Shown: positions 2,440-61,733 of the stretch, in pieces
Layout: every line of letters begins with the position of its first letter
Numbering within the stretch: the stretch's first letter is position 1
Source: Eledone cirrhosa
Taxonomy: Eukaryota
DNA: 64,000 nt
Direction of reading: 5' to 3'
Assembly: GCA_964016885.1 (NCBI GenBank)
Contig: OZ024743.1
Location: 102,610,001-102,674,000, forward strand
Notes under the pieces: generated by a model
What the model saw: only the letters and a program-made list of their open reading frames with translations
What the model was told of the DNA's origin: nothing
The model's database searches: none
Position numbers and translations under genes: made by a program

Positions 2440-5400
2440 CATTTGGCGTATGGAGAATGGGAGATTGTCAAAAGATATGCTTTACGGAACCAGCACCAGG
2501 CGAATGGGTCACTCACCGCTCCATTTCAGGGACGCATGCAAGAAAGACTTGGAAGCCTGCAACATCCCTTCTTCCAGCTGGGAGGGACAGGATGGAGACC
2601 GTGATGTCTGGTGTCAGACTGGCTGCAACATCCCTTCTCCCAGCTGGGAGAGACAAGATGGAGACCACGATGTCTGGTGTCAGACTGGCTGCAACATCCC
2701 TTCACCCAGCTGGGAGAGGCAAGATGGAGACCGCGATGTCTGGTGTCAGACTGGCTGCAACATCCCTTCTCCCAACTGGGAGAGACAAGATGGAGACCGC
2801 GATGTCTGGTGTCAGACTGGCTGCAACATCCCTTCTCCCAACTGGGAGAGACAAGATGGAGACCTCGATGTCTGGTGTCAGACTGGCTGCAACATCCCTT
2901 CTCCCAACTGGGAGAGACAAGATGGAGACCACGATGTCTGGTGTCAGACTGGCTGCAACATCCCTTCTCCCAGCTGGGAGAGACAAGATGGAGACCACGA
3001 TGTCTGGTGTCAGACTGGCTGCAACATCCCTTCTCCCAGCTGGGAGAGGCAAGATGGATACCGCGATGTCTGGTGTCAGACTGGCTGCAACATCCCTTCT
3101 CCCAACTGGGAGAGACAAGATGGAGACCGCGATGTCTGGTGTCAGACTGGCTGCAACATCCCTTCTCCCAGCTGGGAGAGACAAGATGGAGACCGCGATG
3201 TCTGGTGTCAGACTGGCTGCAACATCCCTTCTCCCAGCTGGGAGAGACAAGATGGAGACCGCGATGTCTGGTGTCAGACTGGCTGCAACGTCCCTTCTCC
3301 CAGCTGGGAGAGACAAGATGGAGACCGCGATGTCTGGTGTCAGACTGGCTGACAAATCCCTTCTCCCAGCTGGGAGAGACAAGATGGAGACCGCGATGTC
3401 TGGTGTCAGACTGGCTGCAACATCCCTTCTCCCAGCTGGGAGAGGCAAGATGGATACCACGATGTCTGGTGTCAGACTGGCTGCAACATCCCTTCTCCCA
3501 ACTGGGAGAGACAAGATGGAGACCGCGATGTCTGGTGTCAGACTGGCTGCAACATCCCTTCTCCCAGCTGGGAGAGACAAGATGGAGACCGCGATGTCTG
3601 GTGTCAGACTGGCTGCAACATCCCTTCTCCCAGCTGGGAGAGACAAGATGGAGACCGCGATGTCTGGTGTCAGACTGGCTGCAACATCCCTTCTCCCAGC
3701 TGGGAGAGACAAGATGGAGACCGCGATGTCTGGTGTCAGACTGGCTGCAACGTCCCTTCTCCCAGCTGGGAGAGACAAGATGGAGACCGCGATGTCTGGT
3801 GTCAGACTGGCTGACAAATCCCTTCTCCCAGCTGGGAGAGACAAGATGGAGACCGCGATGTCTGGTGTCAGACTGGCTGCAACATCCCTTCTCCCAGCTG
3901 GGAGAGACAAGGTGGAGACCACGATGTCTGGTGTCAGACTGGCTGCAACATCCCTTCTCCCAGCTGGGAGAGACAGGGTGGAGACCGCGATGTCTGGTGT
4001 CAGACTGGCTGCAACATCCCTTCTCCCAACTGGGAGAGACAAGATGTAGACCTCGATGTCTGGTGTCAGACTGGCTGCAACATCCCTTCTCCCAGCTGGG
4101 AGAGACAGGATGGAGACCGCGATGTCTGGTGTCAGACTGGCTGCAACATCCCTTCTCCCAACTGGGAGAGACAAGATGGAGACCTCGATGTCTGGTGTCA
4201 GACTGGCTGCAACATCCCTTCTCCCAGCTGGGAGAGACAGGATGGAGACCGCGATGTCTGGTGTCAGACTGGCTGCAACATCCCTTCTCCTAACTGGGAG
4301 AGACAAGATGGAGACCACGATGTCTGGTGTCAGACTGGCTGCAACATCCCTTCTCCGAACTGGGAGAGACAAGATGTAGACCTCGATGTCTGGTGTCAGA
4401 CTGGCTGCAACATCCCTTCTCCCAGCTGGGAGAGACAGGATGGAGACCGCAATGTCTGGTGTCAGACTGGCTGCAACATCCCTTCTCCCAGCTGGGAGAG
4501 ACAAGATGTAGACCTCGATGTCTGATGTCAGACTGGCTGCAACATCCCTTCTCCCAGCTGGGAGAGACAAGATGGAGACCACGATGTCTGCTGTCAGACT
4601 GGCTGCAACATCCCTTCTCCCAGCTGGGAGAGACAGGATGGAGACCGCGATGTCTGGTGTCAGACTGGCTGCAACATCCCTTCTCCCAGCTGGGAGAGAC
4701 AAGATGGAGGCCACGATGTCTGGTGTCAGACTGGCTGCAACATCCCTTCTCCCAGCTGGGAGAGACAAGATGGAGACCACGATGTCTGGTGTCAGACTGG
4801 CTGCAACATACCTTCTCCCAGCTGGGAGAGACAAGATGGAGACCGCGATGTCTGATGTCAGACTGGCTGCAACATCCCTTCTCCCAGCTGGGAGAGACAA
4901 GATGGAGACCACGATGTCTGGTGTCAGACTGGCTGCAACATCCCTTCTCCCAGCTGGGAGAGACAGGGTGGAGACCACGATGTCTGGTGTCTGACTGGCT
5001 GCAACATCCCTTCTCCCAGCTGGGAGAGACAAGATGGAGACCACGATGTCTGGTGTCAGACTGGCTGCAACATCCCTTCTCCCAGCTGGGAGAGACAATA
5101 TGGAGACCGCGATGTCTGGTGTCAGACTGGCTGCAACATCCCTTCTCCCAGCTGGGAGAGACAGGGTGGAGACCACGATTTCTGGTGTCAGACTGGCTGA
5201 CAAATCCCTTCTCCCAGCTGGGAGAGACAAGATGGAGACCGCGATGTCTGGTGTCAGACTGGCTGCAACATCCCTTCTCCCAGCTGGGAGAGACAGGGTG
5301 GAGACCGCGATGTCTGGTGTCAGACTGGCTGCAACATCCCTTCTCCCAGCTGGGTGAGACAAGATGGAGACCACGATGTCTGGTGTCAGACTGGCTGCAA

Positions 5401-6750
5401 CATCCCTTCTCCCAGCTGGGAGAGACAGGGTGTAGACCGCGATGTCTGGTGTCAGACTGGCTGCAACATCCCTTCTCCCAGCTGGGAGAGACAGGGTGGA
5501 GACCGCGATGTCTGGTGTCAGACTGGCTGCAACATCCCTTCTCCCAACTGGGAGAGACAAGATGGAGACCACGATGTCTGGTGTCAGACTGGCTGCAACA
5601 TCCCTTCTCCCAACTGGGAGAGACAAGATGTAGACCTCGATGTCTGCTGTCAGACTGGCTGCAACATCCCTTCTCCCAGCTGGGAGAGACAGGATGGAGA
5701 CCGCGATGTCTGGTGTCAGACTGGCTGCAATATCCCTTCTCCCAACTGGGAGAGACAAGATGGAGACCTCGATGTCTGGTGTCAGACTGGCTGCAACATC
5801 CCTTCTCCCAGCTGGGAGAAACAGGGTGGAGACCGCGATGTCTGGTGTCAGACTGGCTGCAACATCCCTTCTCCCAACTGGGAGAGACAAGATGTAGACC
5901 TCGATGTCTGGTGTCAGACTGGCTGCAACATCCCTTCTCCCAGCTGGGAGAGACAAGATGGAGACCACGATGTCTGCTGTCAGACTGGCTGCAACATCCC
6001 TTCTCCCAGCTGGGAGAGACAGGATGGAGACCGCGATGTCTGGTGTCAGACTGGCTGCAACATCCCTTCTCCCAGCTGGGTGAGACAAGATGGAGACCAC
6101 GATGTCTGGTGTCAGACTGGCTGCAACATCCCTTCTCCCAGCTGGGAGAGACAAGATGGAGACCACGATGTCTGGTGTCAGACTGGCTGCAACATCCCTT
6201 CTCCCAGCTGGGAGAGACAAGATGGAGACCGCGATGTCTGATGTCAGACTGGCTGCAACATCCCTTCTCCCAGCTGGGAGAGACAAGATGGAGACCACGA
6301 TGTCTGGTGTCAGACTGGCTGCAACATCCCTTCTCCCAGCTGGGAGAGACAGGATGGAGACCGCGATGTCTGCTGTCAGACTGGCTGCAACATCCCTTCT
6401 CCCAACTGGGAGAGACAAGATGGAGACCACGATGTCTGGTGTCAGACTGGCTGTAACATCCCTTCTGCCAGCTGGGAGAGACAGGATGGAGACCACGATA
6501 TCTGGTGTCACACTGGCTGGAAAAGCATCGTAGGTGCAGATGCGAGGAGAGGTCAACTTGCGGCTAAAACGTGGAGTCGAAAAAGCGATTCGCAAACATA
6601 CCAACCACCCAAGATACCACATGTATCTGTACCAAGTGCAAACATGACATTCACTCATGTATCGTTCTGCGCAGTCACAGTAGACGATGCCAGTGACTAG
6701 ACATAATTCCAGTCGTATTAAGCTTAATTTTCCGAGACTGAGTTGCCAAT
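2440..6750 (+). mobile_element. RTE-clade (BovB-like) LINE 3' fragment with an internal tandem amplification
   Basis: Translation MENGRLSKDMLYG...PLHFRDACKKDLEACNIPSSSWE...DRDVW matches the RTE C-terminal pattern (GR.PK..LYG..R.KD..K.DL...W...DR..W). After the array it resumes and ends in a C2HC-type finger CTKCKHDIHSCIVLRSHSRRCQ* near 6625-6697. Confidence 0.75.
2557..6520. repeat. Minisatellite, 66-bp unit, about 60 copies
   Basis: Unit CTGCAACATCCCTTCTCCCAGCTGGGAGAGACAAGATGGAGACCGCGATGTCTGGTGTCAGACTGG, repeated head-to-tail with a few substitutions per unit. Confidence 0.97.
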
Positions 6751-7355: not shown

Positions 7356-7414
7356 TAGGATCTGTAGACAATCTATAATAGAGACAGAAACATATATATA
7401 TAGGAAAAAGTATG

Positions 7415-7510
7415 ACCCCGACGGCAGAGCTCAAGCCGTTTCGACAGTTATTTCTGGACTAAATTTGAACTTTTAGTCTGTTAAATAAATAGCCGAACTT
7501 GTCAAGGGGT
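7415..7510 (-). ncRNA. Type I hammerhead ribozyme candidate, family B (U3-A8 core variant)
   Basis: Minus strand: ACCCC-TTGACAA-G..CGGCTATTT..GACTAAA..TTTAGTC..AAATAACTG.C-GAAA-CGGC-TTGAGCTCT-GCCG-TC-GGGGT. Stem I is 5 bp, stem III is 5 bp and the triplet is GUC. Confidence 0.75.
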
Positions 7511-8211
7511 ACTTCCTTATATGGAAAGATTGTAGTTGTCAAGAGTATTGGTCAAAATTTGTTGTAAACACAAATAAGTCTGTCATAGCATTTGGTGGGA
7601 GGTAGGGGTGGCTGAACTTGCCTGTAGAACAATGAGGGAGTGAGTGGAGCCGGTCAAGCGTTGAAAGTGAAATCTATACAGCAGATTCTAAGGATAGTGT
7701 ATGAAAAGTCGAAAAATTGTTCTGGAGAAAATGGTGGAGGGAAGTTATAGAATAGGTAATTCAAATGAGAGTAGGAGACAATAAAAAATAATAGAAATAA
7801 ATATTTAAAAAATATATGAAATTAGATAGTGCGAAAAGAATAAAAAAACAACAAAAAACAGTAGAGTCTAGAGACAGCTGCTATAATTAGTAGGTGTTGT
7901 TTGTACGGCCAAAGCTATAGAAAAGGTTAATAAGTTGAGAATGGAAAATACTAAATAAGAAAGTGTAGAAGTGTAGTAGTGAAAAAATATAATGCAAACT
8001 TTTCCGGGGTCTAACACAGCTGCTATAAATAGTTAGTAAAGCGTATTCCGCCAATGCTATCTTACAATTACAGGTTTATAAGTTGAGAATAGAAAATACT
8101 AAATAAAAGATATTGAAATTATAGAATTGGAGTAGTAACAAAAATGATACAAAATTACAGGGGTCTAACACATCTGCTATAAATAGTTAGTAAAGCGTAT
8201 TCGGCCAGTTT

Positions 8212-8542
8212 GGATTAACCGCTTGTGACTTCAAGACCCGGCTCTACCAACAGCGACCTACTTCCGAAACCCGGTCCGGGACATGCCACTACACATTTGG
8301 GCCACATCTGGGACCTCCAAGATAATAATATAACCTACAATCTCACTTGGAGCTTACTGTCCAGAGCTAACTCTTACACGGGAGGATGCCTTCCGTGTAA
8401 CTTATGGTCGGAGGAAACATTACAAATGCTGTTTTCGAAGGACCAACTCCTAAACAAGTTAGACGAACTGGTAATCGCATGCAAACACAGATTACGTAGA
8501 ACTTACCTCGCCCTCAAACCACATAACGACCCGGGTGGGTAG
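8212..8542 (+). pseudogene. Penelope-type GIY-YIG endonuclease C-terminal fragment (frameshifted)
   Basis: GLTACDFKTRLYQ (the YIG.T...FK.R motif), then HATTHLGHIWDL..NITYNLTWSLL..ANSY....PCNLWSEE......LLNKLDELVIACKH. This matches the PLE endonuclease tail HIW.L...Y...W.IL...C.LC..E...LLNK..EL...C.H. Confidence 0.8.
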
Positions 8543-9471
8543 ACAAGGGCTGATACCCCCCACTTGCCGAATAAGTTAGGGGAAACCCCAGCTTACATAG
8601 GTAGATGTACCTCTTTTCTTTTCCTCTATGTTGTCTTCTTCCCCCTGTCTCATCCTATCACTTCTTTCCACCCCCGATCTTCTTCCTCGTCGGTTTTTCC
8701 CCTTCCGCCTACCCCGATGCAGCCCATCGGGCCGCTGTAGCCTCAGTACCCCCACACCTGTAATTTTAAGATAGAATTGGCCGAATACGCTTTACTAACT
8801 ATTTATAGCAGATGTGTTAGACCCCTGTAATTTTGTATCATTTTTGTTACTACTCCAATTCTACAATTTCAAAATCTCTGATTTAGTATTTTCTATTCTC
8901 AACTTATTAACCTGTAATTGTAAGATAGCATTGGCAGAATACGCTTTACTAACTATTTATAGCAGCTGTGTTAGACCCCTTAAAACTCGCATTATATTTT
9001 TTCACTACCTACTTCTACACTTTCTTATTTAGTATTTTCCATTCTCAACTTATTAACCTTTTCTATAGCTTTGGCCGTACAAGCAACACCTAATAATTAT
9101 AGCAGCTGTCTCGAGACTCTACTGTTTTTTTCGTTTTTTTTTATTCATTTCGCACTATGTAATTATATATATTTTTTAAATATTTACTTCTATTACTTTT
9201 TATTGTCTCCTACTCTCATTTGACTTACCTATTCTATACTTCCCTCCACCATTTTTTCCAGAACAATTTTTCGACTTTACATACACTATCCTTAGAATCT
9301 GCTGTATAGATTTCACTTTCAACGCTTGACCGGCTCATCTCACTCCCCATTGTTCTACAGGTAAGTTCAGCCACCCCTACCTCCCACCAAATGCCATGGC
9401 AGACTTATTTGTGTTTACAACAAATGTTGACCAATCCTCTTGACAACTACAATCTTTCCATATAAGGAAGT

Positions 9472-9567
9472 ACCGCTTGACAAGTTCGGTTAGTTATTTA
9501 CCAAGCTAAAAATTCTAATTTAGTCCAGAAATAGCCGTCGAAACGGCTTGAGCTCTACCGTCGGGGT
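9472..9567 (+). ncRNA. Second copy of the family B hammerhead (some stem mismatches)
   Basis: ACCGC-TTGACAA-G...AAATAGCCGTC-GAAA-CGGC...ACCG-TC-GGGGT. Confidence 0.65.
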
Positions 9568-9658
9568 CATACTTTTTCCTATTACCCACTCTAGTACCCT
9601 AAGTATTGAGTACTCTGGTTCGTTATGGTCCATCTGGTTCCCTACCACATTTCCTTCG

Positions 9659-9731
<73 letters not shown>

Positions 9732-9759
9732 TACATATATATATATACTAATATATATG

Positions 9760-19718: not shown

Positions 19719-22700
19719 TTTTCTCTTTCTCTTAATTTCGAGTATATTTTTTTGACCGGCCACCTTCCTGGTGGCAAGGTTGTAAAAGAAAAGAAATTGT
19801 CATCCCTTGAATCGCAAGAATGTTTTGCATATTTTGAAGGTGCCAGCTATCGCAGCCATTTGTAGACTATGAATTAGGGAGCTGCGCTTTTTGTCCGCAA
19901 ATCCAAGTTCGGTCATACTTTGGTCCAAGCGGGTTGGTATATAACCCGTAGCACCAATAATGATGGGTATGAAGCTAAAGGTGTATCTTGGATACTGGAT
20001 TTGTAAGCTCCTCATCAATGGTCCGTAGATGTCCTCCTTCTCCTGTATTTTTCTGACAACGTTTACATCAAGTGGGCAGCTGATCTCCACAACAGAACAC
20101 GTTTTCAATGTGTGGTCCCAAACTACAATATCAGGCCGGTTGTGCTTTAATTTGGTGGCAGTTTTTATTTTCAGGTTCTACCAGTATTCCTTAGTGCCAT
20201 CTGTCTCAATATATTCTTCCTCGTTTGTTGTTAATTTTGTTTTCCGAAGTGCGTTCCAGATAGTTTTAGCTATCCCATCGTGTCTCATGGGAGGTAGTAG
20301 CGAGATGACATTCTTTCGCAGCTGGCAACAATGTGGCTTACATCCTCGATCTTTGTTTTACATAGCCTACATTTATTGTCAGCTGCTGGCCCTCCTCTTT
20401 TGTGCAGCAGATATTTGGTAGGGAGTTCTTGTTCCTGTATTGCATAGAGATATCCCTCAAGGTGTGGTGTCATAAACTTGTCGGAACTCCATGCCAGGCT
20501 TTTTGAGTGGTTTATCCCCTCTATGGTCTGTGTTTTACGCCTCAAGTATCCATGCACAACTTTCTCTGTAAATTGGTCAATTTTTTTTTCTTGTTTGAAC
20601 ATTGAATAGGATCTTCCGATTTCTCTGGGTGAGAGATTTATATCAGGCTTTATTCCATATCTCTCCTCCAGATCAGTCGCTATTCTAATGATATTTCTTT
20701 TTTCATGCTCATAAACCTGAGCAAGATGGTCGCCAACCTTTTTCCTCTGTTGAAGGTGTTGCTTCAGTGTTACTATCCGGGTCTCATATGTTGTTAATAT
20801 TGATTTTAGACCCCGGCCACCTTCCTTGCGTGAGAAGTATAGCCTATCCACATCACCATTGATGTTAAAGTTCCCAGTAACACTGAGAAGTTTTCGAGTT
20901 CTAACATCCATCTCACTTAGTTCTTGCAATGACCAGTTCAGTAGGCCAAATGTTGGCGTTAGAATTGGCACAGCATAGGTATTGTGGGCAATGTATTTGT
21001 TGTATGCTGACAGTTCTGATGACCATATTTTTTTTACTCTTCTGAGGTATTCAGTTCTGGTTCTCTCCTTATTTATGGGTCCATCATATCTGACATTCTC
21101 ATCCTGTCCAAGATATCTGTAGTTGTCACCTGACTGCAGAGGTTGTATTGTCAGGCCGTTCATATCTAGATTTCTAGAGGAGGGCACAGCTCTTCCACGT
21201 TTTACTGCCAAATATGCACACTTGGACTCACCAAATTTCATTTTGATGTCGGTTGAAAATTGTGTAATGAGGTCCAATTGTTTCTTGATGTCATTGATAT
21301 TTGGCCCATACAACTTCAGGTCATCAACAAAGAAAAGATGGGAGATACTTCTGGGCCCACTTCTTTGTCCACCTTGTTTCCTGAGTAGGTAAGATAGTGG
21401 ATTCAGTGAGAGAACGAAGAGTAGTACTGACAAGCTATCACCCTGAAAGATGCCCTTCTGGTAATGTATCCTATCAGTCTTAACCTGCTCCTTCTCACCT
21501 CTAAGGATCAAATTGGTGTACCAGTTCTTGGTCAGGCGTTCAACAGCAGCTACTAATGGTTGTGGGACTTTAGCTAACTGTAAAGCCTTAATAATCCACC
21601 CATGAGGTACACTATCAAATGCTTTTTGATAGTCCAGCCACACGACAGTCATGTTTCTGCGATTCTTTGTTGTTTTTTCCTGAATCATTTTGTTAGTTAG
21701 TAGGTGATCTATGCAACCCCACACCTCCCTCTTTCCACCAGCTTGCTCAGGTGTTATGATGTTGTTGGTAGCACAGTGATCCTGTAAGAACAGGTTAAGG
21801 CACCCAGTATATAATTTATACATGATGTTTTGGCAGGCAATTGGGCGGTAATTTTTAGCAAGGGTGGTTTGGCTATTTTTGGGAATGAGGAGAGTAGTGG
21901 CAGTTGATAACCATCTGGGCAGTTCTTGTGTGCCCTTAATGGTTTCTGTAAACAGCCGTATGAGATCTTGCCGATAGAAAGTGAAATTCTTCAACCAGTA
22001 TCCTGTAATGAGGTCTGGGCCTGGCGATTTCCTATTCGACATTTTCTGTAGAGCTGTTTCCAGTATTGACCCATCTATGTCATATTGTTTTGTCTGGACA
22101 TGTTGGCAGTAGTCCTGTTCCAGTTGTTTTAGCCAATTAGCTTGTCTGTTGAATCCGTCATCCGTTTCCCATACAGATCTCCAGTAGTTCTCAACCTGTT
22201 CTTTTGAAGGAGTGTCGTTTACAGGGATTGAGCTTTTGCCACCGAAGCTGCGATAAACTGATTTAGGATCTCTGGCAAACAATCTATTTAGCACTTGTCG
22301 TTTATGTGCTGTTGACTTATATTTTAGTCTTTCTGTTGTAGCTGTGAGTTGTTGTTTCAACTGGTGTAATTTGGAGTTCAAAGTTTTAAATTTGGTATCT
22401 CCAAATCGTCTCTCTAACTTTTTCTTTAGGTCTTCCTGGTGTCGTGTGAAGTTTCTCTCTATGTTGCATTTCATAACGACTGCGATGTGTGAGATACTTC
22501 GTCTCAGGGACAAAATTTTGGTTTTTAAATTTCGCATCCACGCTGGTTCAGGCTTTCTGTTTGTATCTTGATTGCGTGGTTTTAGATGTGTTTTATATGA
22601 TAGCAATGTGACAGCTGAAACATATAACAAAATATTGAGCGTTTCAAATGTCGTTTCTACACCTTTAGATCGTATAGCCTTCAGATAATTGCCAGCTATT

Positions 22701-23772
22701 TCGTTCACCGCTTCCAATTCCAATTTAGTGGGTTCTTTACTGACTCTAGTGTTGTATGGTCTGTCACTCACATTAAGGCTGTGTATCTCTTGAAACATAT
22801 CGTTCCATATCACTTGTAGGGTGCCCACAAGTTTTTGGTGCTCTGTTTGTTCAGTAGAGTCATGAATTGCAGCCTCGTTGTTGATGTGGTGACAATTACT
22901 ACTAGAGTCAGCTGACCTTTCTCGCTGTTCTTCAGTGGAAGTGGGATGGATTTCAGCAAAATTGTTGGTGAGCTGTTCACTGTTAGATTTAGCTGGCCAT
23001 TCTCTTTGTCTGTCAGTGGAGGTGGGGTGGTTGTCTACAAGGGCTGTATTTGTAGTATCACTCGATTCCGTTTGATGTATCAATTTACATCTAATGATAC
23101 GTTTTGCCTGTTCATTTAGATGCTTTGGAGAAAAGTCTAATTCTGGGTGTTTGGAGTTCCATAAAGTTTTTAGCCTTTGCATAAAACCGAACTTTTGAGG
23201 TTCAGATTGTTTGTATGCTTCATATAATTCTTTGTTAAGCTCGTAGCTCCACTGTATACAACGGTTGTAATTGCGATTTGGTCGAAGGAGACTTGTACTT
23301 TTTGCCATGATCAGTTCGTCTATTCACTAATATTTTGTATTTATTTTTTTTAAATAGTCGATGATCTTCTTTAAAAGTTACGTCAAAGTTCTGTCAGAAT
23401 CAAATTTAAAGTTATTCACAGCTTGGGTAATATTTCTTTTCAGTTAGTTTTTAATTCTACAACTGTGTTTTAAACGTTGTTCTTGAATCGTTTGAATCGA
23501 GAACAAAAAGAACCGTTACTTAGTATATTCCTTTACGAATGTAATATAATATAACAACGCTGTATTTATATGTTAAAGTTTATGTATCATTCATATAAAT
23601 AGGTGTTCTACAACATATTCACAACATTCACAGTTCAAACACTTATGTAGAATTATTGTATGTAATCTTACCGCATAATGTAGCTCAACTTTTTCCAATA
23701 TATGGTATGTTGCCTTCATGTAAGCCGTAATTACACACGTCCGATTATCGGACACTGACCACAACGGTCGCC
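19719..23772 (-). mobile_element. Full-length R4/Dong-like non-LTR retrotransposon (RT + RLE) inserted in (CATA)n
   Basis: Single long ORF with 5' and 3' UTRs. Both boundaries fall into TATG/CATA repeats. Confidence 0.85.
19800..23308 (-). pseudogene. Reverse transcriptase, CCHC zinc knuckle and restriction-like endonuclease ORF with one frameshift and one stop
   Basis: Motifs KSPGPD, NYRPIAC, WLDYQKAFDSVPH, GIFQGDSLS, FFVDDLKL, YRYLG and CRLC..KIEDVSHIVASC. A frameshift near 20290 restores YYLPMRHD, and a TAG at 20178-20180 precedes RPDIVV..VVEISCP..K.D.Y (PD-(D/E)xK). Confidence 0.9.
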
Positions 23773-26870: not shown

Positions 26871-28476
26871 GAACCCGTTATACAAGAAAAATGATAACAC
26901 TCACTCTAGAGCTATTACTGCACAAACTGGAGTCGTTTCAGGGCATCCCGCGCGAACTGGGATGCAGGAGAATCATGTCAGCTTATGACGACGACGTAAC
27001 CGTAGAGGTGTCGAGCGCAAAATACATCGAGGCGATTCGCAATACTATAAGAGAATACGGCGTGGTGACAGGAACTGATATTAACCAGTGAGGGTCGGTG
27101 GGCCAGCGACGGCACCTGGAGAGGCAGGTCTAAATCATCCACAGAGTCGTCGGGCGCTGGACGTACAGACCAATTAAATTGCTAGGATCTGGTTTGGTCC
27201 GGACCTCCAGACGGACAAAAGCTTGGATGAGGTGTCGAGCAGACTGGCCTCTATCACCCAGAAATGGGCCGACAGAAAGCTATCCCTAAAACGTCGGGCG
27301 GAGGTGGTGAACGTGTATTTCGCGTCCATCATTTACTACCGCCTTACCGTCGAGCATTATCCTAAGCTTCGTCTGACTACACCGAAGTGTTTGCTCTTTC
27401 GCTTTTTGTGGAAGGGACACGCTCCCGTGTTTACACGGCCTATGTGCTGTCAACACCCGCTGCGTAGAGGAGTGGATATGCCGTGGCTGATGATGCGCAG
27501 ACATGCACTGAGGCTCCGACATCTCCAGATTTTCCTCAATAGTGAACAAGTGTGGTCATCTTTCACTAAGCACGTTTTTCCGGATAGGACCGCTTGGAAA
27601 CTGGAATGTATTCAAGCGCTCAATGCTCTTTACCAATCGGGCATTGCGATAGCTGAAAGCTCTACGATGGCGTTCTATAGGGGGTTAGTGGATAGCAAGA
27701 ATGACAGCGTCCTCGGGGTAACTCTGGCTATCGACGAATGACAACTAGCTATTCTGTTCAGGTGGACTTTCGGTCCATGGCCAATGGATAACTTCCAGAA
27801 ATCCCTGGCCTGGTAGTGTTACCGGGGAGTGTTGCCTCTCCGAGATAAACTTTACAGGCACTGACGTGTCATCAGTCGGGCCTGTCTGAGGTGCGCGCCG
27901 AGTGACGACACGATCCTGCACGCACTCGTACCCGAGTATCGGTGACTCGTGGGTATATGTCGAATATCTGCTGTCGCGTGTAGGACGGATCCGACTATGA
28001 ACTCAGTCAATTATGAAGATTGTCCGGCCACCCTCCTTTAACCAGGAAGGACAGGCAGGTTTTATATGCCTAGTGGTCACGGTGAAAGAAGTCGTGTGGT
28101 GCACGCGTCTGAAAGGCACTTTCCTCTTCAGTGAAACTCTCATTAACTTTTTCAGGTTTTACCTGAAAAGGTAAACCAGAGTGGAGAGGCAAGTGTTGCC
28201 ATCCATCTGGTTTGATAAGATGTGGGTGAGAGGAGCAGGAATAGACCTTGTGAGTGAACCTGAGCTGAACGTGTACTTGTAGTATTGAAGACAGACAACC
28301 GGGAGAGGGCGCTTGCCTCAGCGGTTAGGGTGATCGTGACTTTTGTGGGCTTCCTCCACGATTAACCCTCGGTGGTTATATTGTTATTGTTATTTTCGAT
28401 TTGTATTCGATTTAATTGTAAACCCCCACTTTCCCTATCTTTGTATTGTCCCCTATATGACGGCCCTTGTGGCCAA
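26871..28476 (+). mobile_element. 5'-truncated Tx1/L1-clade LINE fragment
   Basis: SAYDDDVTV, WADRKLSL..RAEV and LFRFLWKG. Homologous to 32670-34260 and ends in (ATT)n. Confidence 0.8.
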
Positions 28477-28490
28477 TATTATTATTATTA

Positions 28491-28531
<41 letters not shown>

Positions 28532-28718
28532 GGCGGTGGATTGGCAGTATCGGTAGAGGGTCGGACGCTATGCTTTGCAGCGACGAGTTACGGCCCTTTA
28601 TGGTCTGAATTCAAATCGTGCCGAGGTTAACATTGCCTTTAATCCTTACGGGGTCGATAAAATAAAGTACCAGTATTACACTGGGATAATTGCTGGCCTT
28701 GTGCCAAAAGTAGAAACA
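28532..28718 (+). mobile_element. Major tRNA-derived SINE
   Basis: GGCGGTGGATTGGCAGTATCGGTAGAG...TTCAAATC...GGGGTCGATAAAATAAAGTACCAG. Confidence 0.85.
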
Positions 28719-28730
28719 ATTATTATTATT

Positions 28731-31700
28731 GGCGTCCTACGTAGGAAATCGTATTATCACGAGCTCCGCAAAGGTTTGTTGTTTTCAGTTGTTTCAAATT
28801 GCCAGTTATGGAAACATTTTGTTGTTAAGTGTTTATAAGTTCACACATATTGCTTTCTCAAAAGGACACTAATAAAATTGGGGCCTTGAGCACAAAATTT
28901 AAAAAATTTCTTTGAAAAAAACTTGGACGGCTCTCAGTCACACAAAGCTGACAGCCTTCCTTACAAACTAACACCTCACACCAACACCACAATTATAAAC
29001 ATTAGTACGGTTGCCAACACTAAAAATATAAGCAGTGGCAATAATTTAAATTTGTCACATGCAGACATACATTTCCCGCCATTACCAATAACTGCAGGTG
29101 TTAAAGCCGCCACTCCCACCCCAACCACACCACCACCACAGCGACAACAGAAACAAACAAAAAATTATTATCTCGTGACCACGAAATGGATTCACCCAGA
29201 ATCTACTCTTCCACGCCGAACAACACTGACACCACCATCACCACCACCACCACAACTGAAACTAAAAATAACAATAACAAAAATAACAATAACAACAACA
29301 GCAACAACAACAACAATGAGAATAACAACAACAACATCAACACCAGCGCCAAACAAAATGTGTCGTTTGCCAAAGCAACCAAGAAAAGCGAAACAATCGA
29401 GGTAAGCCAGGATGAATTAAATGAAGCTAAGAGAATGCTAAATACAGATGGGTACAGGGTCAGACCCCCCCCTCCATCTAATAAAATGGAACATTGGCGC
29501 CTATGCACCGTGTCATATCGGATGATAAATCCAAAATCGCGCCGAGTGGGACGAGCAACCGAGTCCTAGATACAAAAAGCTTTGGGACATGTGTGGGCGA
29601 AAAAAACCCACATCAGACGTGGGCAGAAGTATGGAACCGTGGACGTGTTCTTCGGAACCCCACAGGAAGCCAGAGAGCACTCCATGGCCCCATTAAGAAG
29701 TGACGAGTTCACACTCATCCCAAGCTATTGTGGTCAGAGTCTCGTGAAGATCAGGGTGACCCACGTTCCGCCGGCCATCGAAATTCCCTGGCTAATGGCT
29801 TCCCACCTCGCCGGCATCGAGGCCAACACGAAAATTATTGAGGTAACAAAAGAAAAGCAGGAGAACTGGTCCGGATCTGGGATGGAGCTACTGATACAAG
29901 CGGACCAAAAAAACATTGAGGAAATTCCAGAGGTGATAGACCTCAATGACGGCAGCCACCTCACCGTAATCGTTGAGGGTAGAAGGCCCAGGTGTGTCGT
30001 TTGTGGGACGGAACCCACCTAAAGGCTTTCTGCCCTCAGACTAAAATTTGAGGCCACCTCTCCTAACCACCCCAGTGACTCCCCCATCAAAATCACCAGC
30101 AGCAGAAATGGCAACAACAACTGTAGCAGCAACAAAAAAAGAAACTGTTGAGCAACAACCCCAGCAACAATAGCAAAACCACCACCACCACCACCCACCG
30201 CGCCAGAATTAGCACCAGCCTCTCCACCATCCACCAGACCACAACCAAAACCAATGCATGTGGAGTATTTTCCACTCCTCGACCTATCCCAACTGGTGAC
30301 AGATTGTGAGGATGAGGAGTGGGAAATGGTATCAGGAAAAAATAAAAATAAAAAAGAACCCAAAAGAGAAAAAATCCTCTTCCTTCGCCCTCCAAAAACA
30401 AAATGCAGGGGGAAACAAATAAGCAAACAAACAAAAAAGTTAAGACAGCTATGCCACCACCCACACCAGTATCACTAGCCCCATTACACAAACATCAACA
30501 CCATCACCATCATTAAGCCCACACCACCATCACCAACACCATAAAAATTCACACCACCTCCACATAAAAATCACTCGCATCACACAGAAAACGTACACGA
30601 CACTAAAACAAAAATTTCCCAAGGATATCGGAGACTTCCGACAAATACTCTCCAGGAGGATTTATAAGGACATCCTTCCGGAGGAGGCCACATGCAGTGA
30701 GAAGGATGGTTGAACCATCCTTCCTCTACGAGAACTGAGACAAGTGGTCTTGCCAATCTTTTTCCACTCATTTCCAACATGACCTCACTCAGAATAGGCC
30801 TCATAAATGCGCGTGGCCTGGGGTCATCACGGAAGCAGAGCCACCTGCCCCAACGACTTCAGGTCACTAAACATAGATGTGATAGCCATCAGCGAGACCA
30901 GAATCTCCGAAGCACGAGCCTTCGCACCGATCTTCGGCGGCTACGATGTGTACGCATCTCCCAACCGTTCATCGGGGAAAGGAGTTGCTGTGCTTTTTCG
31001 GAGAGGTTTGGATCTCGCCATACGGGCCATCTTCCTGGACCCAGAAGGTACGTTTTTGGTACTGGACATGACCAGGGGAAACGGGCAAGCATCAGGCTAC
31101 TGGCCGTCTACGCCCCGACAGGAGCGAGGCGGCAATTTTCTTCCGACGTCTGGAGCCCTTTCTTGCAACGTCCCGCTCTTTAGTGTTAGTGAGCGACTGG
31201 AACGGGATCTTAGATGCACGCTGGGACTGTGTGGGATTAACGGATAGGGGAGGAGGGTGTAAAAGCCTCGCAAACATCCTCAGACGGTTTCAACTGTCTG
31301 ACAGGTACCGTCTGAATTTCCCGAATGTGCCAATGTGGACATGGACAAACCGCATCGGGTCATCCAGATCATATCTAGATAGGGTATTTTCTAGGGAAAT
31401 AGATAGGTCTAGCATAGGCTGTCCACATTTCAAAATAGTCGACTGCACGGACCACAAATTCGTGATCTGTGAGGTTGACTTAGATAGGCTTCATAGACAG
31501 GGGCCCGGTTACTGGAAGCTAAACGCGTCATTAACAGCGCACTAGGCCTACAGAGACCGGATTAACGAACTACTTAAGCAGGCGTTGACGGAGGCCATCG
31601 TCAACAACAAATGCTGGTCTGCTCTGAAAAGACCGATTAGAATAGAGTCCACTAGGTTTAGTAAAGGTTTAGCAATAGAGAAAAAAAGAACAGAGGAAGA

Positions 31701-34263
31701 ACTAATTAAAAAATTAGACGATGCGCTTAGTAAAGGCATCGCGACCGATGTACTTGCGGCGAAATTGGCCCTTGACCAATTCTGCAATGCAAATCACGAA
31801 GGCTGCGTTGTCAGAACTAGGGTGCGTGCTCTCAGACACGAGGGAATGAGAGTGGTTCAATGGGCCCGAGTGGCGGAGGCGCGTCGTGGCAACAAAGCCA
31901 CGATCCGGTCTTTGGTGGACCACGACGGGCGCATGCTGCTCGATCCCGGGCAAATGTGTGAAGCTTTTCAGTGACACTTGGCTCAGCTGTTTGGTTACAG
32001 CGGCGGGCCGGATCAAGGGATGGACTTTAGTGCCTACCTCGACGAATTGCTGCAGCTCTCGCCCACTGAGGCGGAGTGTTGCGAAAAGCCGATAACAATC
32101 GCTTAAGTACGGGAAGCAATGACTGGCTGCACAAGGGGTAAATCGCCTAGTTGGATGATCTGCCCTATGAACTTTACGTACAGATGCCAGACTTGGCGGA
32201 TGTCTACTACAACTGACAACAGAACGGGAGAATTCCCAGCTCTGTGAGTGGAGGAGCGGTGGCGCTGCTAAGAAAGGATCTGCACAAGGGGGATAACATA
32301 GATAACTTCAGAGTTCTAGATTTTGGCCAAGGTGCTAGCAATAAAGTTGGCGCATGTCATTTGTGGTCTGGTGGGAGAGGGGCAGACATGCGCCATTCCA
32401 GACAGATCCATCCACGACAACATCCATCTCATGCGATACATCGTGGAGAGGGTAGCTATGGAACCTGGCATGCGTGGGTACTTGATCAATTTAGATCAGT
32501 CGAAAGCATTCGATAGGCTCGACCATCGTTATCTGGCGGTCCTGAGGGCGGATGGCTTTGAGCCCGTCTTCAGAGGCTGGATCGCTGCTATGCACAGCGA
32601 TATCTGCTCTGGTGAGAGTGAACGGTCACCTTTCGGAACCGTTCAACATCATGCGCTCGGTCCGCCAAGGATGTCCCATCTCGTCCCTGTTGTACGTATT
32701 GAGTCTAGTGCCATTACTGCACAAACTGGAGACGTTGAGGGGTCCCGCGCGAACTAGGATGCGGAAGATCCGTGTCAGCATATGAGGACGATGTCACCGT
32801 AGTGGTGTCGAACGCCAAACACATCGAGGCAATCGGCACTACACTAAGAGAATACGAAGCGGTGACAGGAGCAATGATCAACCAGGAAAAGTCGGTGTGC
32901 CTGCAGCTCGGCACCTGGAGAGGCAGGTCCATGCCGTCCAACAGCGTCGTCGGGCGCTGGATGGACAGACCAGTTAAATTGCTAGGGGTCTGGTTCGGTC
33001 AGGACCTCCAGGCGGACAAAAACTGTGACGAAGTGACGAGCAGGGTGGCTTTTCTCACCCATAAATGGGCAGAGAGGAAGCTATACCTGAAAGGTCGAGC
33101 GGAGGTGGCGAATGCGTACATCGCGTCCGTCATCTACTACCACCTGACCGTCGTGCCCTGTCCTAAGCCACGCCTGACTGTGCTGGGGCGTTTGCTCTTT
33201 CGCTTTTTGTGGAAGGGACGCGCTCCGATGGTCAGGCGGTCCATCTGCTGACAAAACCCGCTACATTGAGGGCTGAGCATGCCGTGGCTGATGATGCACA
33301 GACACGCGCTCAGAATACGACATCTCCACCTCTTCCTGGACGTTGATCAGGTGTGGTCACCGTTTTCTAGACGCGTCTTGGAGATTGGAATGTCTTCAGG
33401 GGCTCCAGCCCTCGACCTGTCGGGCAATGTGATCGATGGAAACTCAAACTTGGCGTTCTATAGAGGATTAGTGGAAAAGCGAAGACTTACTTGGAGAAAC
33501 TCTAGGCGTCAACGGATATCAACTAGCCAATCTTTTCGGAAGAACTTTCGGGCCGGGGCCTATGGACAACTTCCAGAAATCCCTGACATGGCAGTGCTAC
33601 CGAGGAGCTTTGCCAGTTCAGGATAAACTCTACAGGCATGGAGCATCTCTACAGGCTCTACAGGCATCGAACATCTGCTGTCGCGTGTAGAACGGATCCG
33701 GCTATCAGTTGAGTCTATCGTGAAGATTGCCCCGCCCTCTTCCTTTAGCCGGGAGGGGCCGGCAGTTTATATATGTCTGGTGGCCATGTCGAAAGAGATA
33801 GTTTGGTCGACGCGTCTGAAAGGGCTGAAGACGAGCATTTATCTCTTCGGTGATGCCCTGATTAACTTTTTCAAATTTCATTTTAAAAGGAAAATCAGGG
33901 TAGAGAGAGAAGTGCTTTCTTCCCAGCATTTTGTTGAAAGATGGGTGCGAGAGGCAAGAATGGCCCGAGTGAATGGGCCTACTTTGAGTATATGCCTGTA
34001 AATTGAAGGTGGAAAACTAGGAGAGAGCACTTGCCCTGGTGGTCAGGGTCACCGTCGCTTTTTTAATGGGCTTTCTCCACGATGGGCCTCGGATCTCTCC
34101 CCCTATTGGAGAATTTTTCATTGTTTCTTTATTGTTACATCCTCTGTTTTTGTTTTTTTACACGTAGAAATGCTCATTTGTAGCGTTCTGTAGTGTCATG
34201 TATTGTGCTGTACTGTCCCTAATGTCTTACTTTGTGTAAACCCTTGTGGTTAATAAAGAAAGC
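28731..34263 (+). mobile_element. Full-length decayed Tx1/L1-clade LINE (ORF1 plus APE-RT ORF2), flanked by (ATT)n
   Basis: ORF1 remnant has VIVEGRRPRCVVCG..H....CP (zinc knuckle). ORF2 from about 30779 has LRIGLINARGL, DVIAISET, SDWN, RSYLDRV, TDHK, GPGYWKLN, LDQSKAFDR, SVRQGCPIS and AYEDD, with many frameshifts and stops, ending at 34001. Confidence 0.9.
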
Positions 34264-53021: not shown

Positions 53022-56000
53022 CCCCGTGACCAAGAAATACCGGGGTGGCGCCCGGCGTAGAATAGCCGTGTCTCTAAGGAAGGACGACCCCTCTAGTCTT
53101 GGTTGACACTCGTTCTAGAAGTGGTAACACGAAATGATTACCCCTTGGCGGTTAAGGATAAAACGCGACAAAATAAAGTAAATGTAAAATGATAAAATCT
53201 CATACCGGATCGGCACTCACCCGGGTCAAATAGTGCCGCGTCCCTCAGAGAGGAACCAGACTGGGGTCGAAAAATCAGCTAATGGTTCAAACCTTCCCAT
53301 CACTTCGGAGCTGGAGACTTCCCATAACTGGAATACTCCTACTGTTGGCCCTCCATGCTCACCACCAAGAAATCCAAAGAAAAAGATAGATAAATGGTCA
53401 AGGGAAGACAATAAAGAAGTCCTTGAGGCTTTCTACACTGCCATGTACTACCCATCAATTAGATCGAATACAGAACAGACATATATCAACTGGGAAAATA
53501 AACATCCCGAAAACAGAGGCTATATTGACAGTAACAAACTAGCCAATATACGAAGAAATATTGTTAAAAAAAAGTTACTAACTGATATAGAAATTGATCA
53601 GATCAAGCTATTAGCACAACGTCAGCGAAGGGAAAATGAGACATGTGTCAGTGAAAACGAGGTAAATTGTAACACTTCGAATCCCAGGGTTGGGGCGAAA
53701 TCACTGACAGCAGAACAAATTAAAGAAAGGATCGAAAAAGTGGAGCGAGTGCATGCTCAATATGAAACTCAAAATGAAAACATGAAAACAATGAGATCAT
53801 AAATGATAAAGAAATGAATGAGAATGAACTTGTCAACTTGAAGGATGAAATTATGATCGAATGGAAAAAAATGAAAGAATCTGACATGAGGTAACGAGAC
53901 ACTCTCACTGAGATCCAGAACTCCAAACAGAACCCAAAGATAATACACAAAACTAACTTAATTCTCAAAAACACTATCATCACAAACAAACTAAACATTA
54001 CTGATCTAAATCATCTCTATTATGCATCGGCTAAAGTCACTACTCACTTATGTGGAGTGAAAATGAAAAATCAAAGGAATTCCCACAAGAAATCTACTTG
54101 GCAAGAGAACATCAATCGCCAAATTAACCTTCTCCGATCTGACATAGAAATTTTAACAAACTACAAAGTAGGTGAACATGTTAAACAAACTAAACTTAGA
54201 AAATTGAAAAGAAAATACAGTAGCAAATCAAAAAGTGACATAGACATGCTGATAGAAATAATCAAGCAAAAAGTGTCGACCAAAGCTGCTCGTATAAGGC
54301 GCTTTGAAAAATGATCTAGATTTTATAAGGACAATAATATGTTCATAAACAACCAAAGAAATTTCTACAGAAAAATTGGCAAGTCAACAATAACTGCTAA
54401 ATCAATACCACCCAAGGAGGAAGTGCAAGAATTCTGGGAAAAGATCTGGGCCGAAGAAAAAGTTCATAATATACATGCCCCATGGATAGACAGACAAATG
54501 AAAGATACAGCTCACCTTGAGGAACAAACATGGGAAAATATAACACTTGAACAGTTGCGTTTGGCTCTTAGAAAAACCAGCAAATGGAAATCCCCAGGAA
54601 AAGAAAAAATACCAACTTTCTGGATAAATGCCTACACAGAGTCTCGTGAGCTGTTAGCCCAACTTTACAATGAAATAGTTAAGGAGCCAGAAAAGATACC
54701 ATCATGGCTAGTTGATGGCATTACATTCCTACTTCCGAAGAATCATGAGACAAACAATCCCAAAAATTACAGACCGATAACTTGCTTGACTACAATGTAT
54801 AAAATGTTAACATCAGTCCTAACTGAATATACATATGACCACCTGATAAATGATCTATATCCCAATGAGCAGAAAGGGTTTAAACGAGGCTGATATGGCT
54901 GTGAAGATCAGCTTTTGGTTAACATAATGATACTGGAAGATTGTCATAATAGACACAAAAATCTATCAATTGATTGGATAGATTACACAAAAGCATTCGA
55001 TAGTTTGCCACACAGTTGGATTTTAAAATGTTTAGAGATTTTCAAAATATCTCCCGTTGTCAGGAGGTTCCTGTCATTCAGTATGAAGACATGGAAAACG
55101 ACACTCCTTTTGAATAGTAAAAAAAAAATCACTGGAAGCAGAAGTTAATATTAATTGTGGAATTGTTCAGGGTGACTCTTTATCACCGCTTTTATCCTGC
55201 ATCGCACTTATACCATTAAGTAAAATGCTCAATGAAACAAAACATGGATATAAAGTCTATGACAAAACCATTAATCACATGTTCTACATGGATGACCTGA
55301 AAATATTTGCAAAAAGTGATGAACAATAGCAAGGGCTATTATGCTCTGTGAAGCAGTTCAGTGGTGACATTAAAATGGAGTTTGGACTAGATAAATGCGC
55401 CAAAGCAACGTTCACCAGAGGAAAGCTGCTGAAAAGTTCAGACATTAATCTTGATCAGGGGAATGTGATAAGAGAACTTGATCAAGAGGAAACCTAAAAA
55501 TATTTAGGTGTTTGTGAAGGAGACGGAATCAAGCACTCGACAATGAGGGAAAGGATAAGAAAGGAATGTTACCGCAGAGTAAGAGCAATCTTAAGGACGG
55601 AATTGAATGCAAGGAATAGGATCGATGCCATAAACACGCTTGCCATACCAGTTGTAACCTACAGTTACAATGTCATCAACTGGTCAAGCACAGAGATCCG
55701 TAGGCTCGATACAAAAATCCGAAAATTCTTAACCATGCACAGAATGCATCACTCTAATGCAGATACAGATAGAATATATCTCCCTAGGAAAGAAGGTGGA
55801 CGTGGGTTAATCCAGTTAGAGATTGCGTTGAAAACTGCAACAATTGGATTATCTACATATCTAAGGGAATCACATGATTGGATGATCAAGCTCGTTTTGA
55901 AACACGAAAGTATCAAAAGATCATACTCCATTACAAAAGATGCACAAAGATACAGCAATGGACTACAAATCCTACAAGTTCCATTTACTGCTGAAATGTA

Positions 56001-57770: not shown

Positions 57771-58176
57771 AAGGTTAAACAAGGTTGAATGAATAAATCA
57801 ATGAATAAAGTTTTACAATAGATTAGAAGCACTCCACAGCAATGGTTTTCCGGAGTTATTAATATTAATTCAAAATAATTAACAAATATAGAAATTCGTG
57901 TGATCAAGTATATTTTATTATACATATTACAGAGGTACTGAGCTATCTTCAACAGTACGTCCTCATCAGATAAAACAAGATGATGCTTGAGATACCTTGA
58001 CTAAGTAGATGCCATGACTGAATTTTAACCATCTACTTAGTCAAGGTATGTCAAGCATCATCTTGTTTTATCTGATGAGGACGTACTGTTGAAGAGAGCT
58101 CAGTACCTCTGAAATATGTATAATAAAATATACTTGATCACACGAATGTCTATATTTGTTAATATTTTGAATTAAT
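57765..58176. mobile_element. Family E fold-back element in (TA)n (arms about 57864-58011 and 58030-58176, extra tail on the left)
   Basis: Near-perfect inverted repeat of about 148 bp with a spacer of about 18 bp. Confidence 0.75.
58064..58130 (+). ncRNA. Type I hammerhead ribozyme candidate, family E (minimal stem III)
   Basis: TGTTTTAT-CTGATGA-GGA-C-GTACTG..CAGTAC-C-TCT-GAAA-T-ATGT-A-TA-ATAAAATA. Stem I is 8 bp and the triplet is AUA. The mirror copy has GAAA changed to GTAA. Confidence 0.75.
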
Positions 58177-60683: not shown

Positions 60684-60753
60684 CGGAACAAGTAAACATT
60701 AAACAATCTTTTAGATAAATTAAAATACGATTTAAATATTTACCTCTTCTAGT

Positions 60754-60833
60754 GCCATGACCGACGGTTTCGCTTATCAAAAGATTGGAATTTCAGAGAA
60801 TTTCCAATTGAAATATATGGCTCTTCAGATAGC
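60754..60833 (-). ncRNA. Type I hammerhead ribozyme candidate, family F
   Basis: Minus strand GCTAT-CTGAAGA-GC...ATTGGAA..TTCCAAT...GC-GAAA-CCG-T-CGG-TC-ATGGC. Canonical core, G-C closing pair of stem II, near-palindromic stem III and GUC triplet. Confidence 0.75.
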
Positions 60834-61611: not shown

Positions 61612-61733
61612 AGGAAAAGGTTTGACCCCGGCGGCAGAACTCAAGCCGTTTCGACGGTTATTTCTGGACTATCTATCTATCTATCTATCTATATATATAT
61701 ATATATAGATAGATAGATAGATAGTCCAGAAAT
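61612..61733. mobile_element. Family B fragment folded back through a (CTAT)n-(TA)n-(ATAG)n palindrome
   Basis: GACCCCGGCGGCAGAACTCAAGCCGTTTCGACGG..ATTTCTGGACTATCTATC....GATAGATAGTCCAGAAAT. Confidence 0.7.

What the first reader, a model, noticed from the sequence alone, without database searches (positions are those of the whole stretch)
7415..7510. Natural U3-A8 hammerhead variant (UUGACAA core) with extended stem II
Seen: in both family B arms the core reads TTGACAA instead of CTGANGA, while stem I (ACCCC/GGGGT), stem III (ACGGC/GCCGT), GAAA and a GUC triplet are canonical. Stem II is a long two-segment hairpin. Established: C3 and G8 form a tertiary Watson-Crick pair in the active hammerhead, so U3-A8 is a compensatory double change. 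Inference: the ribozyme was under selection in the active element and would be missed by CUGANGA-only searches.
Basis: partly seen in the sequence, partly recalled or inferred. Interest (0 to 1): 0.75.

Follow-up and report, generated by a model that had tools for sequence, protein, structure and literature searches.

The report
Penelope hammerhead with drifting core pair
This is a decayed copy of a hammerhead RNA motif at the end of a very abundant Penelope-type jumping gene; its swapped U3-A8 core pair is the family norm and is already published, but the family kept multiplying through a long phase with that pair mismatched and then restored it, so the predicted self-cutting is likely helpful rather than essential.

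Summary
Real, and mostly known. Window 7510-7415 (minus strand) is a type I hammerhead motif with core UUGACAA. It lies in the pseudo-LTR of a Hydra-clade Penelope-like retrotransposon that is inserted here as a truncated, tail-out inverted pair. U3-A8 is inherited, not decay: C3-G8 occurs in 4 of 2,607 matches. Related families carry C3-G8. Along the master lineage 1 of 44 core and stem positions changed, against 115 changes in 158 upstream positions, so the fold was under selection. Natural U3-A8 is published (2011; in Penelope elements 2014). In the ORF tree they form about 40% of the trunk and gave rise to the youngest, ORF-intact U3-A8 elements, with the ORF under purifying selection throughout. 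The pair is therefore favoured but not required. The long stem II is shared with C3-G8 families here; only its outer helix is conserved. Both window arms are damaged. Cleavage is untested. The scan noted this family and its mismatch phase before, on other copies (e1-10307551, e1-10308940).

The parts
7415..7510 (-). Type I hammerhead motif, left arm; U3-A8 core at 7505-7499; predicted cut between 7420 and 7419; outer stem II damaged by two private changes
7402..8210 (-). Left, inverted arm of the insertion (3' UTR and pseudo-LTR); it ends 18 nt past C17, next to (TA)n
   Evidence: 93.9% identical to 8775-9582 over 813 nt; end class +18
8219..8542 (+). 3' remnant of the element's ORF (end of the GIY-YIG endonuclease with the CxxC and CxH motifs)
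   Evidence: 85.6% identical to residues 628-717 of the intact ORF in L043 (row L031)
8211..9659 (+). Right arm: 5'-truncated element (ORF end, 3' UTR, pseudo-LTR, 80-nt tail); it ends about 98 nt past C17, next to (TA)n
9472..9567 (+). Hammerhead motif, right arm; U3-A8 core at 9477-9483; mismatches in stems I, II and III; predicted to misfold
9660..9750 (.). (TA)n microsatellite at the insertion end (a short TA run also flanks the left end, near 7391-7401)
43742..43960 (.). Fold-back fragment of the same family: only the 3' half of the hammerhead, in inverted pair, plus the tail
61615..61671 (-). Further fragment with only the 3' half of the hammerhead

Best explanation
The motif is a type I hammerhead sequence in the pseudo-LTR of a Hydra-clade Penelope-like retrotransposon; its fold was kept by selection, and it likely cuts slowly after GUC to trim the element's RNA, a step that likely helps transposition but is not required for it. 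Shown: full-length members carry the motif in both pseudo-LTRs, with the predicted cut 191 nt upstream of the ORF's ATG. Genomic copies end 18 or about 98 nt downstream of the predicted cut. Inferred: reverse transcription starts at those two sites and copies back through an uncut or re-ligated downstream hammerhead, so a fast ribozyme at the 3' end would destroy its own template and a slow one is tolerated. Shown: across seven successive subfamilies every core and stem position is fixed except N7, position 3 and one wobble change; position 8 stayed A while position 3 went U to C to U. Inferred: U3-A8 is a working but context-dependent pair that came from an ancestral C3-G8, possibly through U3-G8. 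C3-A8 would be a much weaker state that the element survived and later corrected. The two arms in the window are dead, mutated copies.
For: Element anatomy: L043 has pLTR - 722-aa ORF from the ATG - pLTR, with the motif in both repeats. The ORF has RWR, DKT, YRDD, CxCx5C, VIY..YIG, CxxC and CxH, matching the Hydra-clade description (PMC8557442 section 11). Ends: +18 in 81 of 196 arms, +97 to +99 in 71 of 196, followed by (TA)n; this is like the two reverse-transcription start sites of the anole element (PMC11167929). Selection: 1 change in 44 core and stem positions against 115 in 158 upstream, 14 in 16 downstream and 20 in 39 in inner stem II; Poisson P = 4e-13, and 0.0014 for the 9 single-stranded core positions alone. 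With the core left free in the pattern, U4-G5-A6, A8 and A9 were intact in 100 of the first 100 listed of 4,299 matches, while N7 took all four bases (hand count). Outer stem II covaries with the sister family: G-C to A-U in 9 of 32 rows, U-A to A-U in 8 of 32. Tolerance of the mismatch: 1,888 C3-A8 arms; L134 is full length with C3-A8 in both pLTRs. The ORF tree of 59 rows x 813 columns puts them on the trunk over 0.064 of 0.163 changes per site; a single C3-A8 clade is rejected, p-AU 3.6e-5, and a single U3-A8 clade is rejected on the pLTR tree, p-AU 5e-50. Within that phase the ORF fixed 23 synonymous and 10 non-synonymous changes in 243 codons. In the anole element, hammerhead mutants did not impair insertion in vitro. 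Single changes at this pair give low activity in a type III hammerhead (PMC9901934).
Against: No cleavage or expression data exist for this family. During the mismatch phase the rest of the motif stayed fixed (0 changes in 43 positions where about 5 were expected, P = 0.006), which fits retained activity or a non-catalytic role better than a crippled ribozyme. In the pairwise scan of PMC9901934 only the G-C swap rescued this pair, so U3-A8 itself may be weak. Stem III shows no change on both sides of a pair, and the 3' half of the motif is about 30 times deeper than the 5' half in the contig sets, so that half may be conserved as an end signal rather than as a ribozyme. The root of the family is unsettled: searches place it among the oldest U3-A8 copies, inside the C3-A8 grade, and monophyly of the old U3-A8 copies is not rejected (p = 0.24). 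The U3-G8 step towards this family rests on one copy (L279). Fold predictions depend on the 140-nt window chosen, and only copies with intact anchor motifs were scored.
Confidence: 0.62

Rival explanations
1. The hammerhead-shaped RNA is kept mainly as a binding or priming signal for the element's protein at the pseudo-LTR end, and cleavage is vestigial, so the 3-8 pair drifts freely between U and C.
For: Copies end at fixed distances from the motif. Fragments holding only the 3' half are abundant. The mismatch lasted about 40% of the trunk. The anole element inserts without cleavage.
Against: The single-stranded catalytic positions stayed fixed while N7 changed twice (P = 0.0014). Position 3 returned to U, and positions 3 and 8 covary between families. 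A protein signal need not follow hammerhead chemistry so exactly.
Confidence: 0.15
2. C3-A8 is itself a competent core in this scaffold (C-A wobble; help from the long stem II, a dimer or the element's protein; or the linked G7 standing in for G8), so cleavage was required throughout and position 3 simply tolerates either pyrimidine.
For: The rest of the motif was conserved during the mismatch phase. C3 is nearly always linked to G7. Loop III holds the palindrome GAGCUC, and two copies of that part pair as a dimer at -30.1 kcal/mol against -8.1 for one. The anole hammerhead needs protein to cleave.
Against: Single mutants at this pair have low activity in the tested hammerhead. The lineage went back to U3. 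C3-A8 subfamilies are predicted to favour a hairpin that hides G12-A13 (median probability 0.56 in 16 of 36 scored, 0.81 in 15 of 20, against 0.01 in 50 of 68 for the window's subfamily and 0.23 in 17 of 17 for the youngest).
Confidence: 0.15
3. A-to-I editing of A8 restores a C3-I8 pair in the RNA, which switches the mismatched ribozyme on.
For: Another note of the scan reports editing marks in Penelope copies of this genome (e1-8671701; its claim was not checked here). A8 lies in a structured RNA.
Against: Edited templates would leave C3-G8 progeny. These are 4 against 428 C3-A8 under the same pattern (0.9%), no more than the neutral A-to-G rate of 1.3-1.7% in these subfamilies. The test is blind if edited RNA is always cut and never copied.
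Confidence: 0.03
4. The C3-A8 copies are non-autonomous passengers moved by U3-A8 masters, so the pair was never broken in an active element.
For: Penelope proteins are thought to move non-coding elements. Three loci hold one U3 and one C3 arm (L093, L107, L341).
Against: The youngest intact elements are nested inside the C3-A8 grade behind several starred nodes in two trees built on different regions. A side clade is rejected, and the ORF evolved under purifying selection in that phase.
Confidence: 0.05

Closest known systems
U3-A8 minimal hammerheads of Schistosoma mansoni Cercyon Penelope-like elements (Cervera and de la Pena 2014, PMC4209133; parts 1-2 of 4 and supplement part 1 of 3 read)
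   Same: Same core swap, in the pseudo-LTRs of a Penelope-like element, about 1,300 hits; pairs on opposite strands; palindromic helix III region; conserved G10.1-C11.1.
   Different: Here stem III is a full 5-bp helix with a 9-nt loop, so a monomer can fold. Stem II spans 56 nt instead of 7-8 bp, there is no extra base between positions 9 and 10.1, and no mismatch lineage is described in the parts read.
Hydra clade of Penelope-like elements and their hammerheads (Craig et al. 2021, PMC8557442; section 11, passages, supplement parts 1-2 of 59 read)
   Same: C-terminal GIY-YIG without CCHH, DKT, CxCx5C linker, CxxC and CxH, (TA)n targets, hammerhead in the pseudo-LTR, inverted 5'-truncated arm.
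   Different: All 26 Hydra-clade rows of File S2 have C3-G8 cores and a short stem II (loops of 3-10 nt). RWK reads RWR here, and the unit is about 3.5 kb against the 'generally <3 kb' described.
Natural U3-A8 covariation in hammerhead cores (Perreault et al. 2011, PMC3088659; section 8 and passages read)
   Same: The same compensatory change, reported there in several natural examples and said to be active in vitro.
   Different: Rare examples there; here it is the majority state of two high-copy families, with C3-G8, U3-G8, U3-A8 and C3-A8 all present among related families.
Hammerhead of the anole Poseidon element PAc (Frangieh et al. 2024, PMC11167929; parts 1-2 of 4 read)
   Same: Two reverse-transcription start sites downstream of the hammerhead give the tail signature; the template is uncut RNA; the 3-8 pair matters for cleavage but not for insertion in vitro.
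   Different: Different clade, C3-G8 core, minimal protein-assisted ribozyme that overlaps the start codon; here the predicted cut is 191 nt upstream of the ATG.

Membership tests
Type I hammerhead ribozyme | Three helices around the core, with stem I open-ended | tested here: met
   (86.3% of cells paired against 82.0% shuffled; 29-48% when the partners are slid)
Type I hammerhead ribozyme | U4 G5 A6, A9, G12 A13 A14, A15.1-U16.1, H17 and G10.1-C11.1 conserved | tested here: met
   invariant across the majorities of seven subfamilies and of the sister family
Type I hammerhead ribozyme | Watson-Crick pair between positions 3 and 8 | tested here: met
   met in the window's copies and subfamily (U3-A8); not met in 1,888 C3-A8 arms of related subfamilies
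Type I hammerhead ribozyme | Tertiary contact between stems I and II | tested here: inconclusive
   stem I extends with bulges in the folds, but its sequence changes freely (14 changes in 16 positions); no contact was identified
Type I hammerhead ribozyme | Self-cleavage after NUH | not testable with these tools
   needs an RNA assay or raw RNA reads
Rfam hammerhead families | Match to an Rfam covariance model | tested here: not met
   no hammerhead family among the 5 matches at E up to 10 for 7380-7560
Penelope-like elements | Single ORF with reverse transcriptase and GIY-YIG between pseudo-LTRs that hold a hammerhead | tested here: met
   L043, L045, L160. Pfam and PDB gave no hit for this ORF; the assignment rests on motifs and on a homologue with a GIY-YIG hit (P0001)
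Penelope-like elements | 5'-truncated inverted arm and a tail present at one end only | tested here: met
   window arms end at +18 and about +98; 18 of 77 loci are tail-out pairs
Hydra clade | RWK, DKT, CxCx5C linker, CxxC, CxH, no CCHH | tested here: met
   RWR at 37, DKT at 117, CxCx5C at 572, CxxC near 667-673, CxH at 698; no cysteine pair inside the VIY..YIG core
Hydra clade | Insertion into (TA)n | tested here: met
   186 of 196 arms have a TA run within 200 nt of C17
Hydra clade | Placement in a reverse-transcriptase tree with reference Hydra elements | not tested
Metazoan retrozymes | Non-coding tandem units without an ORF | tested here: not met
   the motif belongs to an ORF-bearing element

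The most novel reading that the evidence does not exclude
The genome holds a dated record of a catalytic RNA base pair evolving through every intermediate (C3-G8, U3-G8, U3-A8, C3-A8, then U3-A8 again) in an autonomous retrotransposon lineage, and the C3-A8 form is a working natural hammerhead that breaks the 3-8 pairing rule, helped by the long stem II, by G7, by dimer formation or by the element's protein.
Probability: 0.15. Interest if true: 0.75.

Novelty: new variant of a known kind. Interest (0 to 1): 0.4.

Why it matters
The U3-A8 core alone adds little, because it has been in print since 2011. The family history matters more. Why Penelope-like elements keep a hammerhead is open: the 2014 paper proposes processing of precursor RNA, the 2021 paper raises the possibility that the motifs are passengers, and the 2024 in vitro work finds cleavage dispensable. 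Here one lineage supplies natural, successive versions of the same ribozyme with the key pair intact, broken and restored, each with hundreds of copies. Measuring their rates would show directly whether cleavage speed matters for a successful element, or whether a C3-A8 core can work. In practice, searches for hammerheads in such elements should allow Y3 with A8 and a stem II of 50-60 nt.

Tried and rejected
Decay from a CTGACGA consensus: rejected. Assembly artefact next to the C-run as the source of C3: rejected. The state follows subfamilies in the trees and is balanced on both strands (925 and 963), and three contig sets cover the site of a C3-A8 copy with no other letter listed at position 3 or 8 (these may come from the sample that was assembled, so they are not independent). 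Expression: no RNA holder listed, which says nothing either way. Rfam gave no hammerhead hit (the 150 listed of 262 matches were microsatellite look-alikes and a tRNA match). Pfam and PDB sequence searches with the ORF were blank. A technical slip: the protein query used to locate ORF DNA was translated one base out of frame, so the identities printed there are not protein identities. The trees are DNA trees of the homologous stretches; the search and the codon counts were redone in frame, which replaces the codon counts. Rows left out of the ORF tree: 4 near-duplicates and 5 loci with mixed or unread cores. Left out of the test: three lone copies whose state differs from their neighbours (L013, L083, L062) and 7 rows with other cores. 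In frame, one of the 20 loci of the family of the hammerhead at window 60828 had a hit to this ORF (L184, a neighbouring copy of the present family), so its parent element was not identified. Papers sought but not held: Przybilski and Hammann 2007 (known here only through its citation in PMC3884650 and PMC3088659), and two further ids. No kinetic value for a C3-A8 hammerhead was found. The 2026 retrozyme preprint gave 0 hits for six terms and was not read further.

Full report
Observation. On the minus strand, window 7510-7415 reads as a type I hammerhead: stem I, core UUGACAA, G10.1, a 56-nt stem II, GAAA, a 5-bp stem III with a 9-nt loop, GUC, and the closing strand of stem I. A descriptor allowing C-G, U-A or G-C at 3-8 found three motifs in the window: this one and two with C3-G8, at 58072 (+) and 60828 (-). 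The region folds better than 199 of 200 shuffles. Rfam has no model that detects it. The second arm (9472-9567, +) has the same core but mismatches in stems I, II and III. The left arm has two private changes in stem II and is predicted to pair G12-A13 away. Both are aged copies.

What carries it. 7400-8210 is a 93.9% inverted copy of 8775-9582. Between the arms lies the end of an ORF (8219-8542) with 46,646 first-look candidates in the genome, of which 150 were scored. Ten loci with long open frames were fetched. L043 is a full unit with the hammerhead in both pseudo-LTRs. Its 722-aa ORF has RWR, DKT, YRDD, CxCx5C, VIY..YIG, CxxC and CxH, the features given for the Hydra clade of Penelope-like elements (PMC8557442 section 11). 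Of 196 arms, 81 end 18 nt and 71 end 97-99 nt past C17, at (TA)n; the ATG lies 191 nt past C17. The window's arms are one of each class. This matches the tail signature, which in the anole element marks two reverse-transcription start sites (PMC11167929). It follows by inference that the template still held an intact or re-ligated hammerhead at its 3' end. The host is probably an octopod; this comes from other notes of the scan and was not tested.

Is U3-A8 inherited? With positions 3, 7 and 8 free, one pattern matched 2,607 times (reversed control 0). Of the first 100 by position, 84 were U3-A8, 14 C3-A8 and 2 other. C3-G8 matched 4 times and C3-A8 428 times. With the whole core free, a wider pattern matched 4,299 times; in the first 100, U4-G5-A6, A8 and A9 were intact in all, position 3 was U in 91 and C in 9, and N7 took all four bases (hand count). 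The decay alternative is excluded.

Selection. Between the majority states of seven successive subfamilies (5 to 22 copies each), 44 core and stem positions changed once, and that change kept a G-U pair. In the same steps 158 upstream positions changed 115 times, 16 downstream positions 14 times and 39 inner stem II positions 20 times; N7 and position 3 each changed twice (P = 4e-13, and 0.0014 for the nine single-stranded core positions). In 32 hand-picked copies, outer stem II shows double changes against a sister family, the inner helix is 72.9% paired, and stem III has no double change. Only the outer helix of the long stem II is under strong constraint.

Origin of the pair. A sister family (356 matches; first 100 by hand count: 83 U3-A8, 8 U3-G8, 3 C3-G8, 6 other) and a more distant family with C3-G8 share stem III and the GUC site. 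Their ORF fragments are about 51-71% (one decayed copy 38%) and 53-57% identical to L043. U3-A8 is thus derived from C3-G8, given that outgroup. One U3-G8 copy is sister to the present family (98/92), a weak hint at the wobble route. The pattern (87 matches, reversed control 58) and the family at 60828 (2,074 candidates, 40 scored) show that long stems II also occur with C3-G8 in this genome.

The broken pair. A further subfamily set had 1,860 matches, with 66 of the first 100 C3-A8 (hand count); the genome total for C3-A8 under one pattern is 1,888 arms. A tree of ORF DNA (59 rows, 813 columns, independent of the ribozyme) is a ladder: oldest U3-A8, the window's U3-A8 subfamily, a C3-A8 grade crossed by several starred nodes, then the youngest U3-A8 elements with intact ORFs. 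A pseudo-LTR tree with the core masked (99 rows) has the same ingroup order but roots inside the C3-A8 grade. A single C3-A8 clade and a single U3-A8 clade are both rejected; the root is not settled (p = 0.24). Under either root the youngest elements descend from C3-A8 ancestors. The phase covers 0.064 of 0.163 changes per site on the trunk, and in it the ORF fixed 23 synonymous and 10 non-synonymous changes. The rest of the hammerhead did not change in that phase (P = 0.006). Predicted folds of those subfamilies favour a hairpin over G12-A13, which fades in the youngest subfamily. C3-G8 progeny are no more frequent than neutral change predicts.

Mechanism. Most likely the motif is a slow ribozyme that trims the RNA in the upstream pseudo-LTR, while the downstream copy has to survive until it is copied; the 3-8 pair then tunes a helpful but non-essential step (0.62). 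The rivals are a non-catalytic end signal (0.15), a competent C3-A8 core (0.15), passenger subfamilies (0.05) and rescue by editing (0.03). Anatomy, counts, conservation and tree order are shown; cleavage, its rate and its role are inferred.

Relation to what is known. Natural U3-A8 covariation is reported in PMC3088659 (section 8) and, in Penelope-like elements of Schistosoma, in PMC4209133 (about 1,300 hits). The 26 Hydra-clade rows of File S2 in PMC8557442 all have C3-G8 and short stems II, though two non-Hydra rows have long loops II. [quoted passage not shown] I found no report of an amplified C3-A8 lineage in eight searches of the held library, which lacks most subscription papers. The scan's own notes describe the same family and the same mismatch phase on other copies. 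I saw these after noting the result; they are not independent support.

Verdict. A real hammerhead motif of a known kind with a published core swap. What is worth following up is the family's passage through a mismatched core and back. New variant of a known kind; interest 0.4.

Noticed in passing
window 60746-60833 (-): Canonical C3-G8 type I hammerhead with a long stem II and palindromic stem III, followed directly by ATG; young high-copy family (2,074 candidates; the 40 best are 95-98% alike); no parent ORF found in 20 loci.
   Followed up: partly
window 57930-58125: Fold-back element with a C3-G8 hammerhead-like core at 58072 (+) and an inverted copy to its left.
   Followed up: no
window 43742-43848 and 61615-61740; L006, L012: Short fold-back fragments made of only the 3' half of this hammerhead (stem III, GUC, stem I strand). 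That half is about 30 times deeper than the 5' half in the contig sets, which suggests a very large non-autonomous offspring.
   Followed up: partly
L093, L107, L341: Loci whose arms differ at position 3 (one U3, one C3); private change, gene conversion or nested copies.
   Followed up: no
family-wide, 3' strand of stem II and 3' strand of stem III: GCCGUCG occurs twice, which allows a hairpin AGCCGU-CGAA-ACGGCU that hides G12-A13; the youngest subfamily changed the second copy and gained an A-U pair next to G10.1. A possible folding switch.
   Followed up: partly
L215, L219, L220, L224, L230, L237, L241: Several more C3-G8 hammerhead families with 40-65-nt stems II; L215 and L224 lie beside ORFs 43-58% identical to this Hydra-type ORF.
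   Followed up: partly
window about 2700-6520: Long tandem array of a 60-bp unit that stays open in several reading frames.
   Followed up: no
window 20285-23323 (-), 53188-56656, 26905-34000 and 61725-62690: Non-LTR retrotransposon ORFs: one open frame of 1,012 aa with reverse-transcriptase motifs and several decayed copies.
   Followed up: no
window 43993-44054 (-): Rfam tRNA match of 41.9 bits, probably the head of a tRNA-derived SINE.
   Followed up: no
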